A stretch of 64,000 bases of DNA from Promethearchaeota archaeon. Its GTDB lineage: Archaea > Asgardarchaeota > Lokiarchaeia > Sigyniarchaeales > SOKP01. Each line of letters starts with the position of its first letter. The first letter of the stretch is position 1. Shown in pieces: positions 51,963 to 54,944 of this stretch. Under the pieces are notes generated by a model. It ran no database searches. It had not been told where the DNA came from and worked only from the letters and a program-made list of their open reading frames with translations. The translations under genes and the position numbers were made by a program. The stretch lies in assembly GCA_016840085.1 (NCBI GenBank), contig JAEOTA010000012.1, positions 1-64,000 of the forward strand, read 5' to 3'.

Positions 51963-52364
51963 GTGTCTTCTGAAAAAATAGTATATAAGTTAAACATCAG
52001 TGGTGGTACTGAAGGACCTGGAAAAGGATTATCCAAGCTTATTGAAATTGATGAAAAAAAATTTCGATTTGAAGGGATGAAAATTGGTGATGTTATTAAA
52101 GGTGGGCTTGTAGGATTTCCTAATTATGAATTCGTAATTACCGGGGGGAGTGACTCATCAGGATTCCCCATGAGGAAGGATGTACATGGCCCTGTTAAAA
52201 AGAAAATTCTTGTTTCTAAAAGAAGTATTGGATTTAAACCTCGAAGAAACGGAGAAAAAAAGAGAAGAACCGTGAGAGGTAATGAAGTAACAAGTGATAT
52301 GACATTAATTAACCTAAAAGTTACAAAATATGGAGAAGCCGAACTTTTTAAAAAAGAAAAATAA
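51963..52364 (+). CDS. rps6e: 30S ribosomal protein S6e
   Basis: ITGGSDSSGFPMRKDV, GEKKRRTVRGN. Confidence 0.95.
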   Translation: MSSEKIVYKLNISGGTEGPGKGLSKLIEIDEKKFRFEGMKIGDVIKGGLVGFPNYEFVITGGSDSSGFPMRKDVHGPVKKKILVSKRSIGFKPRRNGEKKRRTVRGNEVTSDMTLINLKVTKYGEAELFKKEK

Positions 52365-52390
52365 TAATGAAATATTTTCGATGATGCATC

Positions 52391-52573
52391 ATGGTCAAAG
52401 TTAAAAAATGTAGCTTTTGTGGGTACGACATTCCTATAGGTCGAGGGGTAATGTTTATCCAAAAGAACGGTGTAATATATAATTTTTGTACTAACAAATG
52501 TAGAAAAGCATTGTTGGTTTATAAAAAAAAAGCAAGAAAAACTAGATGGACCGCTTATTACGGGAAAGAATGA
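52391..52573 (+). CDS. rpl24e: 50S ribosomal protein L24e
   Basis: CSFCGYDIPIGRGVMF...FCTNKC...RWT. Confidence 0.95.
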   Translation: MVKVKKCSFCGYDIPIGRGVMFIQKNGVIYNFCTNKCRKALLVYKKKARKTRWTAYYGKE

Positions 52574-52598
52574 TTTTTACTTACTCTTTCTAATATTC

Positions 52599-52605
52599 AA
52601 AAAAA
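52599..52605 (-). terminator. U7 tract after the distal copy of the rpoN 3' end
   Basis: A7 on the + strand, 7 nt beyond the TAA at 52613-52615. Confidence 0.4.
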
Positions 52606-52612
52606 GGTTTAA

Positions 52613-52654
52613 TTATTGTAATCGAGGAAATTTAAGTAGTTCATCGATCAGGTC
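52613..52654 (-). repeat. Second, synonymously recoded copy of the last 14 codons of rpoN (DLIDELLKFPRLQ*)
   Basis: Compared with 52736-52777: 8 nucleotide differences in 42 nt, none changing an amino acid. Confidence 0.92.
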
Positions 52655-52785
52655 AAGTTGATCTATATAAATATAGTACTCAAATTCCTTTAGATTAAAA
52701 TAAAACGAATCAGAATCATATTTATTTAATCTAGATTACTGTAATCTAGGAAATTTGAGTAGCTCATCTATTAAATCTACATGAC
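52652..52785 (-). repeat. Long imperfect inverted repeat: the proximal rpoN 3' end (52785-52742) pairs with an antisense arm (52697-52652)
   Basis: Helices GUCA/UGAC, GAUUUA/UAGAUC, AUAGAUG/UAUUUAU, UACUCAAAUUUC/GGAAUUUGAGUA and UAGAUUA/UAAUCUA on the mRNA strand. Confidence 0.8.
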
Positions 52786-52967
52786 TTACACTTATAAGGC
52801 GAAAATGCCTACTAATTTACGATCATGCGTTTACAACAAAAGCGTTCAATACCAAGCTCCTTAAACGCTTTTTCTGAGCTCTCTCCTTTTTCTAAATACT
52901 CTAAATACGGTTCATATACATGGGCTATTAATTTACCACAGGAGAAGCATCTCACAGGTATGATTAT
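52736..52967 (-). CDS. rpoN: DNA-directed RNA polymerase subunit N (Rpo10), interrupted by a 31-nt insert; probable ATA start; not in ORF track
   Basis: (M)IIPVRCFSCGKLIAHVYEPYLEYLEKGESSEKAFKELGIERFCCKRMIV [31 nt] SHVDLIDELLKFPRLQ*; 66 aa once the insert is removed; GAGGAG upstream. Confidence 0.93.
52786..52816 (-). other. 31-nt intervening sequence in rpoN (candidate BHB-type mRNA intron or bypass element)
   Basis: AUUAGUAGGCAUUUUCGCCUUAUAAGUGUAA; carries in-frame UAG UAG, shifts the frame, contains a hairpin, and GUAA is repeated at both junctions. Confidence 0.75.
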
Positions 52968-53098
52968 CGTTAATCTCCTCTATCTATATCAAATTTTCTT
53001 CTCATTTAATAAAATAGATGATCCCTTCTAAAAAAAATTTTTGATTTTTATTTACATCCAATTTTAAAAGGACAAAATACACTCAACATTTAGAACTT

Positions 53099-53938
53099 TT
53101 AAATTTCAACTAAACTACTATTTAAATAAGTCGGAATTATGGTTATTAGATTATTTCTCAAATATATTACTTTTAATGATGTTAAATTTTTAATTGATGC
53201 AGGAAGTGTTTTAAGCTTATTTTTCTCTAAAAATAAGATCTCAAGATTAGATAAATTTCCAATTGCGTCTGTTAGCTCTTGCAAGTGATTATCGTCTAAA
53301 TATAATTTTTTTAAAGAAGTTAGATTTGCTATTAATTTAGGAATATGCCTCAATCTATTGTGATCAAGACTAAGAGATTCAAGATCTTTTAATCCAAAAA
53401 TTGGTTCTGGAATAGAACTAAGACCACAACTATCCAAATTGATATGTTTTACTGAACAAATTTTCCCAGAATCAACGTAATCCCAAAACTGGTCAAGACC
53501 GATAACTCCATGAATAAAGTCCTCGTCATTAGTATTCTTAAGACGTACTAAGTGTAATTTTACACCCGGTTTATGAGCTCGAATCTTATCCCGTAAATCT
53601 TTAAGATAAAACTTTCTCTCTCTTACAAATCTTTTGTCCCATAACCCTTTCTCATGCTCCCATTTTGAAGCGTCAATTATTTTGGTCGTTAAATCATCAG
53701 GGAGAACAGATCCAGTTAAAAGAATAAAATAACCAAGAACAAGGTAAGTCTTCCTTCTTGAAGATCGTCTTTCAACTATTTTCATGATTTTATCGAAACT
53801 ATCTTCAAAAATATCCCTAGTTAATACTCTATCATCATTATGATAGTCTTTTAGATTTATCCCACATGCTTTTATGAAAAAAGATGCAAGGTCGGATTCT
53901 TCGTCTCCTTCCATAATTTCAGCTGTTAATTTTGCCAT
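53099..53938 (-). CDS. Leucine-rich repeat protein
   Basis: About five 23-aa repeats LxxLxLxxNxLxxIPxxIxxL at the C-terminus. Confidence 0.9.
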   Translation of the reverse strand: MAKLTAEIMEGDEESDLASFFIKACGINLKDYHNDDRVLTRDIFEDSFDKIMKIVERRSSRRKTYLVLGYFILLTGSVLPDDLTTKIIDASKWEHEKGLWDKRFVRERKFYLKDLRDKIRAHKPGVKLHLVRLKNTNDEDFIHGVIGLDQFWDYVDSGKICSVKHINLDSCGLSSIPEPIFGLKDLESLSLDHNRLRHIPKLIANLTSLKKLYLDDNHLQELTDAIGNLSNLEILFLEKNKLKTLPASIKNLTSLKVIYLRNNLITIIPTYLNSSLVEI

Positions 53939-54010
53939 AAAAACAACTATAAAATTTTCCTCATTATCAAAATAAAAAAATAAATATTTAAATAGTACAC
54001 ATATTATATT

Positions 54011-54367
54011 TCATTTCCCTAAAAAGTGACTTGTATAAAAGAGCTTAGCTTCATCAAATGTCATACCATCAAACAGATCACTCATTATTTCATCAATTTT
54101 GTTATAAATTTTATAAGTATTTATAGTACTCTCTGAATAACCAAGGTCTCGTAATAAATCTTCAGCAGTATCGCTCTCGATTATTAATCTTTTTGCTCTT
54201 GGTTTATCAAATAACTCAAGTTTTTCAACTCTAATTCCACGCATATTTTTCTCAACAAATCTTTCAACATTCCATTGGTCTACATCTAACTGATCAGCAA
54301 GTTGAATCGTTGTAATAAATCCTTTACTGATATAGGACGAAATTAATGATTTTAGATTTTTGAAAGC
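54011..54367 (-). pseudogene. 5'-truncated HTH-containing gene fragment
   Basis: The frame stays open 41 codons upstream of the listed ATG and includes TTIQLADQLDVDQWNVERFV, but has no canonical start before the in-frame TGA at 54370-54368. Confidence 0.5.
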
Positions 54368-54581
54368 TCATGCACAGTTAGAAGAGACCTATTTTCATAT
54401 TACTGAAACTTACACTTTAGATGATTTTTTACCATTAGCAAAAGCCAAATGTAATAATTGTGGTTATTTTATTATTCAATTGGACAGTTATAATTATTAT
54501 TTAGATAAAGGCGAGTGTCCTAAGTGTTTTTCCAATACCTATTTCAAAATAAATGATGGAAAAAAGGAGATGGTGAACTAA
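54360..54581 (+). CDS. Zinc-finger ORF, probably a 5'-truncated fragment
   Basis: CNNCG...CPKC; no SD or promoter space; abuts the divergent fragment. Confidence 0.5.
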   Translation: MKAHAQLEETYFHITETYTLDDFLPLAKAKCNNCGYFIIQLDSYNYYLDKGECPKCFSNTYFKINDGKKEMVN

Positions 54582-54779: not shown

Positions 54780-54944
54780 ATGAATAGTAATGATATGGAA
54801 TGGTTGAATAGTTTTAGGAAAGAAATATATGTTGAATTCGATCAATGTGGGAATGATCGTCAAAAATTAGAAAAGGTTGCGTCAACGTTAGATGTTATTG
54901 ATCACATAATCAATCATTTTAAGGCAAAATATAATTTAAAATAA
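54780..54944 (+). CDS. Small 54-aa hypothetical protein
   Basis: MNSNDMEWLNSFRKEIYVEFDQCGNDRQKLEKVASTLDVIDHIINHFKAKYNLK; GAGG upstream. Confidence 0.5.
   Translation: MNSNDMEWLNSFRKEIYVEFDQCGNDRQKLEKVASTLDVIDHIINHFKAKYNLK

What the first reader, a model, noticed from the sequence alone, without database searches (positions are those of the whole stretch)
52736..52967. Core RNA polymerase gene rpoN is split by a 31-nt insert in a bulge-helix-bulge-like fold: candidate mRNA intron in an Asgard archaeon
Seen: an otherwise intact Rpo10 (CFSCG and CC zinc ligands) is broken at ...AUG AUC GUA A^[AUUAGUAGGCAUUUUCGCCUUAUAAGUGUAA]^GU CAU GUA GAU... Unprocessed, it stops at 51 aa (MIVN*) and loses the conserved HVD helix. 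Removing 52816-52786 restores a 66-aa protein. Hand folding gives an exon-exon helix GCAUGA/UCAUGU, a 4-nt central helix UCGU/GUGU (relaxed: one U.U and two G.U), two 3-nt bulges (AAA and AAG), and an intron stem UUA/UAA + AGGC/GCCU. Established: the archaeal splicing endonuclease EndA cuts after the second nucleotide of each BHB bulge, and cbf5 is the classic mRNA precedent. Applying that rule here excises exactly these 31 nt in frame. Inference: this is an EndA-spliced intron in a core transcription gene, possibly regulatory. The weak central helix is the main caveat.
Basis: partly seen in the sequence, partly recalled or inferred. Interest (0 to 1): 0.95.

Follow-up and report, generated by a model that had tools for sequence, protein, structure and literature searches.

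The report
Mobile tRNA-type mini-intron splits Asgard rpoN
The only gene for RNA polymerase subunit Rpo10 in this Asgard archaeon is broken by a 31-base insert shaped like a tRNA intron, so its mRNA very probably has to be cut and rejoined, and related species show the insert moving between them as DNA, usually beside a selfish DNA-cutting gene.

Summary
Confirmed. The only rpoN of this Lokiarchaeia (Promethearchaeota) genome carries a 31-nt insert (52816-52786) that stops the protein at 51 aa; cutting by the BHB rule restores 66 aa. Ten of 48 species of the genus have it at the same site (one is 30 nt, in frame, with stops). The fold covaries (95% of cells paired, slid controls 29-59%). The genus encodes two-subunit EndA; this assembly holds RtcB and the beta subunit only. 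Its uS3 and purA carry similar inserts.

Carriers are scattered over the species tree (10 changes for 10 genomes; one clade rejected, p=5.5e-6). A leftover of the host's original rpoN 3' end lies downstream (52656-52613; 7 of 10 genomes). A free-standing LAGLIDADG gene found only beside rpoN flanks 6 of 10 carriers, but not this one, and also two intronless alleles.

Best reading: an EndA/RtcB-spliced mRNA intron spread by nuclease-driven gene conversion. Nothing supports a regulatory role. No spliced RNA was seen. I found only cbf5 published for archaeal coding sequences. This scan has already noted the same intron and nuclease link in other genomes.

The parts
52817..52967 (-). rpoN/rpo10 exon 1: codons 1-50 plus one base, ATA start, zinc ligands C7/C10/C44/C45. 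A mosaic: SD and about the first 9 codons match the LRR-block carrier L175, codons 16-50 match G024.
   Evidence: (PF01194 positions 1-49)
52786..52816 (-). 31-nt BHB intron with two in-frame TAG codons and a frameshift; identical to the intron of G024
52779..52828 (-). Whole hBHBh' motif: exon helix 52828-52823/52784-52779, central helix 52822-52819/52791-52788, predicted cuts 52817^52816 and 52786^52785
52736..52785 (-). rpoN exon 2 (SHVDLIDELLKFPRLQ*), a synonymously recoded foreign copy that came with the intron
   Evidence: 11/47 differences from sister G067, 5/47 from distant G047
52657..52735 (-). 79-nt spacer between exon 2 and the remnant; in G008, G052 and G023 a convergent LAGLIDADG gene of about 1.5 kb fills this slot
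52613..52656 (-). Displaced remnant of the host's original rpoN 3' end (from codon 53 to the stop), continuous with the native intergenic region towards rpl24e
   Evidence: 37/39 identical to intronless sister G067, downstream flank also matches
52971..52981 (-). Shine-Dalgarno GAGGAG ahead of the non-AUG (ATA) start
53099..53938 (-). LRR protein gene, part of an upstream block absent from sister G067 and shared (71-74% DNA identity) with intron carriers G047 and L175
54011..54355 (-). C-terminal 114-aa remnant of a nuclease-like gene that is whole (723 aa, GIY-YIG-like middle) in G047
   Evidence: 63% identity; atlas score 0.89-0.90, a lead only
52391..52573 (+). rpl24e, convergent native neighbour (rps6e precedes it at 51963-52364)

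Best explanation
The insert is a bulge-helix-bulge intron in the rpoN pre-mRNA. Exon and intron bases fold into a relaxed hBHBh' motif. The two-subunit EndA of this genus cuts after the second base of each 3-nt bulge, RtcB joins the exons, and the 66-aa Rpo10 is translated (fold and enzymes: shown by comparison; cutting and joining: inferred, about 0.88). The intron cannot move by itself. It spreads between species as DNA, by gene conversion of a cassette holding the last codons of exon 1, the intron and a replacement exon 2 (horizontal movement: shown by tree and mosaic pattern, about 0.85). The likeliest driver is a free-standing LAGLIDADG endonuclease that lives only beside rpoN: it would break a recipient's rpoN and be copied in with the cassette, with the host's old 3' end left behind as the right homology arm (inferred, about 0.6). 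In G000 no such gene is left at the locus; intron, replacement exon 2 and remnant are the scar. The stated confidence is for the splicing claim.
For: Same site in 10 of 48 species, always restoring a 66-aa protein at the BHB cut. 94.7% of cells paired, 3 pairs with changes on both sides, slid controls 29-59%. The central helix covaries (UCGU/GCGU, UUGU/GCAU, UUGU/GCAG), as does the outer intron pair (G-C to A-U in G059). The Arg codon that builds the exon helix is CGC in 10/10 carriers and 0/37 intronless genomes. G047's insert is 30 nt, in frame, with stops. There is one rpoN only. RtcB is present. The genus has two EndA paralogues; alpha has the Tyr/His/Lys motifs and an N-terminal K-P-R loop like the crenarchaeal loop linked to relaxed substrates. 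uS3 has 31- and 30-nt inserts and purA a 31-nt hairpin insert in G000, absent in G067 and G013. Mobility: 10 changes for 10 genomes, AU p=5.5e-6. G008 and G052 differ at 22% of ribosomal-gene bases but at 1 of 66 bases around the intron. The remnant's best match is the tree sister in 5 of 7 genomes. All 7 genomes of 135 in the family with a close LAGLIDADG homologue have it beside rpoN.
Against: No spliced RNA or circular intron was observed. The G000 central helix has one Watson-Crick pair, and its first pair is U.U in 9 of 10 species; the MFE fold does not form it. The catalytic EndA alpha gene is not in the G000 assembly (found in the nine other carriers). Carriers share one origin and horizontal history, so covariation counts rest on few events. 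The endonuclease also flanks intronless rpoN in G012 and G236, G236 with a native-looking site, so the intron is not required for its residence. G000, G016, G047 and G055 have no LAGLIDADG at the locus. Some intronless sister pairs also show excess rpoN divergence (G050/G051), so rpoN is exchanged without an intron too.
Confidence: 0.88

Rival explanations
1. Translational bypassing: the ribosome takes off at the Val50 GTA codon and lands on the GTA at the end of the insert, as in T4 gene 60 or mitochondrial byps. No RNA is cut.
For: Take-off and landing codons match (GTA/GTA) in 8 of 10 species, and a hairpin with stops lies between them.
Against: The landing codon is ATA in G016 and AGA in G055, and G023 would get Cys51. 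The codon after GTA is a sense codon. Bypassing does not explain the conserved exon-exon helix (CGC 10/10 against 0/37), the covarying central helix or the two 3-nt bulges.
Confidence: 0.03
2. No processing: the 51-aa product keeps all four zinc ligands and works without the C-terminal helix, or the gene is a pseudogene complemented by an unassembled copy.
For: C7, C10, C44 and C45 are all in exon 1. The assembly is incomplete: it lacks EndA alpha.
Against: Exon 2 is 16/16 conserved in protein in all ten carriers while its synonymous sites vary, and the remnant copy next to it does collect substitutions (G008, G023, G047). No carrier has a second rpoN. The fold covaries.
Confidence: 0.05
3. 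The intron is spliced but spreads by ordinary homologous recombination or as a passenger of other insertions at this hot spot (such as the GIY-YIG-like/LRR block upstream), with no causal role for the LAGLIDADG gene. This rivals the driver step only.
For: G000, G047 and L175 share the upstream nuclease-remnant/LRR block and have no LAGLIDADG there. Both flanks of rpoN take up varied cargo. LAGLIDADG also lies beside two intronless alleles.
Against: LAGLIDADG is beside rpoN in 6 of 10 carriers against 1 of 38 intronless species (not independent). It sits between exon 2 and the remnant in G008, G052, G023 and L119/L140. G008 and G052 share both a near-identical intron region and sister-like endonucleases (72% identity) despite distant hosts.
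Confidence: 0.35
4. The intron is a conserved regulatory device that ties RNA polymerase supply to splicing capacity.
For: It sits in a core transcription gene and carries stop codons, so unspliced mRNA is non-productive.
Against: 38 of 48 species lack it, including the closest sister G067 (4% ribosomal-gene distance), and it is scattered like shuffled labels. Outside this genus it was not found: pattern scan; phylum search, where the five weakest matches I checked were contig ends or whole genes.
Confidence: 0.07

Closest known systems
cbf5 pre-mRNA BHB intron of Desulfurococcales and Sulfolobales (Watanabe 2002; Yokobori 2009, PMC2738675)
   Same: Short (16-44 nt there, 30-31 here), ORF-less intron inside a coding sequence, often with a relaxed BHB, in hosts with hetero-oligomeric EndA.
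   Different: The cbf5 intron was inherited from a common ancestor with some losses, and its splicing was shown. This one is in an RNA polymerase subunit of an Asgard archaeon, is scattered over the tree and moved horizontally with flanking DNA, is one of several such inserts in the genome, and has not been seen spliced.
Collaborative homing: free-standing endonuclease beside an ORF-less intron (cyanophage psbA; T3/T7-like phages; Zeng 2009, Bonocora and Shub 2009, as described in PMC10448857)
   Same: Endonuclease gene outside the intron, next to the host gene; intron and endonuclease acquired together.
   Different: There the intron is a self-splicing group I intron in phage and cutting at the insertion site was shown. 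Here it is a 31-nt protein-spliced intron in a cellular gene, the enzyme is a double-motif LAGLIDADG, cutting is untested, and two intronless alleles also host the enzyme.
Archaeal rRNA BHB introns encoding LAGLIDADG homing endonucleases (reviewed in PMC2738675; I-DmoI from own knowledge)
   Same: EndA-type intron coupled to a LAGLIDADG enzyme for mobility.
   Different: There the gene lies inside the intron and the host is rRNA. Here it lies outside, up- or downstream, and the host is an mRNA.
Asgard tRNA mini-introns (bioRxiv 10.64898/2026.10.13.758758) and the Haloferax HVO_1309 5' UTR intron (PMC7714728)
   Same: Same motif; repeated gains in Asgard lineages; EndA acting on an mRNA in Haloferax.
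   Different: The preprint covers tRNA genes only and found no general arrival route among those it tested (copying, mobile elements, reverse transcription). The Haloferax intron is outside the coding sequence.
Endonuclease genes that insert into a gene and bring a replacement 3' end (fungal mitochondrial atp6 and others; own knowledge, not checked here)
   Same: Duplicated 3' end, foreign functional copy, native remnant left behind the endonuclease gene.
   Different: Here the replacement end also carries an intron.

Membership tests
Archaeal BHB (EndA-spliced) intron | Two 3-nt bulges on opposite strands around a 4-bp central helix, with outer helices | tested here: met
   Geometry holds in 10/10; central helix 3 of 4 pairs in nine species, 4 of 4 in G055, i.e. 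relaxed
Archaeal BHB (EndA-spliced) intron | Cuts after the second bulge base restore the uninterrupted product | tested here: met
   66-aa Rpo10 with Ser or Gly at 51 in all ten
Archaeal BHB (EndA-spliced) intron | Structure kept by covariation, and precise absence in relatives | tested here: met
   3 pairs with double changes, slid controls far lower; 38 intronless species are colinear
Archaeal BHB (EndA-spliced) intron | Host encodes catalytic EndA able to cut relaxed motifs, and RtcB | tested here: inconclusive
   RtcB and EndA beta in G000; alpha missing from this assembly but found in the nine other carriers; alphas inspected have Tyr/His/Lys motifs and a K-P-R loop
Archaeal BHB (EndA-spliced) intron | Spliced RNA or circular intron observed; cleavage by EndA | not testable with these tools
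   No RNA run was listed for this DNA; no assay possible
Collaborative homing pair | Free-standing homing-endonuclease gene adjacent to the intron-bearing gene | tested here: inconclusive
   Met in 6 of 10 carriers (PF14528, two LAGLIDADG motifs); not met in G000 itself, whose two homologues are about 30% identical and lie elsewhere
Collaborative homing pair | Intron and endonuclease move together between lineages | tested here: met
   G008/G052 and G001/G023/L119/L151 share intron type, arrangement and endonuclease clade or high identity across hosts that are not sisters
Collaborative homing pair | The enzyme cuts at the intron insertion site and the intron blocks it | not testable with these tools
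   Remnants begin 6-12 nt past the intron site in 6 of 7, which fits; two intronless alleles host the enzyme, which does not
Group I / group II self-splicing intron | Ribozyme core of several hundred nucleotides | tested here: not met
   The insert is 30-31 nt
Translational bypass element | Matching take-off and landing codons with a stop or unused codon after take-off | tested here: not met
   Mismatch in G016 and G055; sense codon after GTA

The most novel reading that the evidence does not exclude
Lokiarchaeia of this genus must splice essential mRNAs (Rpo10, uS3, PurA) with the tRNA machinery, and at least some of these ORF-less mini-introns spread between species because a free-standing homing endonuclease cuts the intron-free allele and the intron shields the converted one. 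This would be collaborative homing with a protein-spliced mRNA intron in a cellular genome, and a worked route by which introns invade coding genes in the closest prokaryotic relatives of eukaryotes.
Probability: 0.35. Interest if true: 0.92.

Novelty: new variant of a known kind. Interest (0 to 1): 0.8.

Why it matters
The papers I could search document splicing inside an archaeal coding sequence for cbf5 only (PMC7714728, PMC2738675). An intron in a single-copy RNA polymerase subunit, with more in uS3 and purA of the same genome, would make mRNA splicing essential in an Asgard lineage. It would also mean that annotation truncates core genes there. The locus preserves the steps of intron spread (donor exon, displaced native end, intact and decayed endonuclease genes, intronless sisters), which bears on the question left open by the 2026 Asgard tRNA-intron preprint: how such introns arrive. 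It gives two simple bench tests, one RNA for EndA and one DNA site for the endonuclease.

Tried and rejected
RNA evidence: no RNA holder was listed for 52300-53300; this says nothing on expression. Laying four DNA runs gave only contigs, mostly of relatives, and no piece spanning the stretch; one mangrove contig crossed the insert without a listed gap there. Not decisive.
De novo genome-wide BHB scan of G000: 1547 candidates; ORF restoration at the predicted register was no higher than at shifted registers at 15 and 40 aa, and 5 against 0-2 at 60 aa. Too noisy; replaced by direct comparison of uS3 and purA.
Viral carrier: no intron pattern in viral contigs. No integrase-like ORF was recognised near any carrier by eye, so my first idea of a provirus attachment site was dropped.
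Copy of the intron elsewhere in G000: none beyond chance 12-16 nt matches. The two LAGLIDADG paralogues of G000 lie at unrelated loci. No PDB sequence match for the endonuclease. Promoter and terminator scan: chance level. Split rpoN in other families: G087, G139 and G239 are contig ends, G202 and G114 are whole.
Assembly artefact and frameshifting were rejected. The direct repeat GTAA at both intron ends might be a target duplication, but the uS3 and purA inserts show none, so I draw nothing from it.
I did not search protein databases with the joined protein, which has no reference. Bonocora and Shub 2009 was not held and is cited through PMC10448857.

Full report
Observation. The minus strand at 52967-52736 encodes Rpo10, broken after the first base of codon 51 by 31 nt (52816-52786). 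Unprocessed it ends MIVN* at 51 aa; without the insert it gives 66 aa. The assembly (G000; 4.68 Mb, 98.8% complete, 7.6% contaminated) has no other rpoN except a 44-nt copy of the 3' end at 52656-52613. Records carrying the same pattern are titled mostly Promethearchaeota, so this is a Lokiarchaeia-type Asgard archaeon.

Relatives. Of 54 genomes of the genus, 48 have rpoN and 10 break at the same model position. All ten have an insert at the same base: 31 nt in nine, 30 nt in G047, where it keeps the frame but holds stops. That excludes frameshifting. Eight metagenome contigs (seven distinct) add further variants. I did not find it outside the genus. Cutting after the second base of each bulge yields a 66-aa protein with Ser or Gly at 51 in all ten. 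With the BHB structure, 94.7% of cells pair, three pairs change on both sides, and slid controls give 29-59%. The central helix varies in step (UCGU/GCGU, UUGU/GCAU, UUGU/GCAG), although its first pair is U.U in nine. The Arg codon that builds the exon helix is CGC in 10 of 10 carriers and 0 of 37 intronless genomes. These sequences share one origin, so the counts are not independent events.

Machinery. G000 has RtcB and one EndA paralogue, which lacks the catalytic His motif. Most genomes of the genus have two, and the nine other carriers have the alpha form. The alphas I inspected keep the Tyr, His and Lys motifs and have an N-terminal loop with K-P-R, the signature described for the crenarchaeal loop tied to broad substrate range (PMC12397907). 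The missing alpha in G000 is most simply an assembly gap (inference). Prompted by earlier scan notes, I compared uS3 and purA with G067 and G013: G000 has 31- and 30-nt inserts in uS3 and a 31-nt hairpin insert in purA that both relatives lack. Several essential genes here therefore depend on removal of such inserts.

On a tree of six neighbouring genes (45 genomes), the ten carriers need ten changes, as shuffled labels do, and a single clade is rejected (p 5.5e-6). Parsimony cannot tell gain from loss, but the DNA can. G008 and G052 differ at 22% of ribosomal-gene bases and at 33 of 129 bases in the 5' part of rpoN, yet at 1 of 66 exon bases around the intron. G000 and its intronless sister G067 show the reverse: 4% against 26%. 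Seven carriers keep a second copy of the rpoN 3' end downstream; none was seen in about 20 intronless loci checked. Its best match is the host's tree sister in five of seven, including the downstream intergenic DNA, and it begins 6-12 nt past the intron site in six. The remnant is thus the host's old end, and intron plus exon 2 are imported. In G000, codons 16-50 and the intron match G024 (89 of 90 bases over codons 16-45), while the start region matches L175. The gene is a three-part mosaic.

The likely driver. In G008, G052 and G023 a convergent gene with two LAGLIDADG motifs (PF14528) lies between exon 2 and the remnant. G001 has it broken in the same place, G024 has it upstream, and G059 has a fragment on the upstream side of a contig break. 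Five of the eight metagenome contigs carry it. Among 135 genomes of the family, all seven with a close homologue have it beside rpoN. Five of these carry the intron. G012 has a foreign, recoded intronless rpoN, and G236 (another genus) an ordinary-looking one. The enzyme therefore looks like an rpoN-resident homing endonuclease that replaces alleles, and the intron travels with it. Whether the intron also shields the site, as in phage collaborative homing (PMC10448857), is open. G000 itself has no such gene at the locus. Upstream it has an LRR gene and the last 114 codons of a gene that is whole and GIY-YIG-like in G047, a block shared with G047 and L175 and absent in G067. That block may be a second vehicle or plain cargo.

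How it works. Shown: site, fold, covariation, enzymes in the genus, horizontal movement, remnant. Inferred: EndA cuts and RtcB joins (0.88); the LAGLIDADG enzyme drives spread (0.6); the intron blocks its site (0.35). Bypassing fails in G016 and G055. A working 51-aa protein does not explain a conserved exon 2. A regulatory role does not fit absence from 38 species.

What is known. The searches found cbf5 as the only coding-sequence case and the Haloferax HVO_1309 5' UTR intron. Yokobori 2009 also notes predicted, unconfirmed introns in other genes. The 2026 Asgard preprint treats tRNA introns only and found no general arrival route. The library lacks most subscription papers, so priority is not established. 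Earlier notes of this scan report the same rpoN intron with the endonuclease link in other genomes and many other such introns. I had reached this reading before opening them, and they are not independent evidence.

Verdict. A real feature: a new variant of the archaeal BHB mRNA intron, mobile, in a core gene. Splicing is very likely but unseen. Interest 0.8.

Noticed in passing
window 52965-52981 (-) and relatives: Many relatives start rpoN at ATA, ATT, ATC, GTT, GTC or TTC. All 24 such starts have a GAGG Shine-Dalgarno, while 34 of 38 ATG starts have none: apparently SD-led non-AUG initiation alternating with SD-less ATG starts in one gene.
   Followed up: partly
window 53099-54355 (-); G047 L074:12827-15919; G049 C41; G044 C6: Nuclease-like gene (GIY-YIG-like middle, HTH tail) followed by an LRR gene. 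In G049 related sequence lies in a 9130-aa frame followed by the LRR homologue, like a microbial toxin/immunity pair. G000 keeps only the last 114 codons and has three more close LRR paralogues.
   Followed up: partly
G000 C85:~141950-142280 (uS3) and C49:~147250 (purA): 31- and 30-nt inserts in uS3 and a 31-nt insert in purA (central helix GGGG/CCCC), absent in G067 and G013; also a 39-nt difference just upstream of uS3.
   Followed up: yes
G000 C24, minus strand near 121207: 32-nt BHB-like insert whose removal restores a ferredoxin CxxCxxCxxxC motif.
   Followed up: no
G047 L041/L074, about 190 nt downstream of the intron: The remnant there includes the last bases of an intron plus exon 2, so an intron-bearing allele was itself displaced by a later event.
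   Followed up: partly
G012 L091:2957-5692: The rpoN-linked LAGLIDADG domain is the C-terminal part of a 912-aa frame with an N-terminal zinc-ribbon-like segment.
   Followed up: no
G063 C93 (L046): A second, divergent rpoN with a long tail, probably from a contaminating genome in that bin.
   Followed up: no
G000 whole genome: ARAGORN finds only 13 tRNA genes, most with odd introns or implausible anticodons, consistent with heavily interrupted tRNAs.
   Followed up: no
window 54360-54581 (+), 54780-54944 (+): Two small ORFs without Pfam match in the block absent from G067; the first has two CxxC pairs.
   Followed up: no
G050 against G051; G056 against G043: Intronless near-sisters with strongly diverged rpoN DNA (27% in the 5' part against 2% in ribosomal genes for G050/G051): rpoN is an allele-exchange hot spot.
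   Followed up: no
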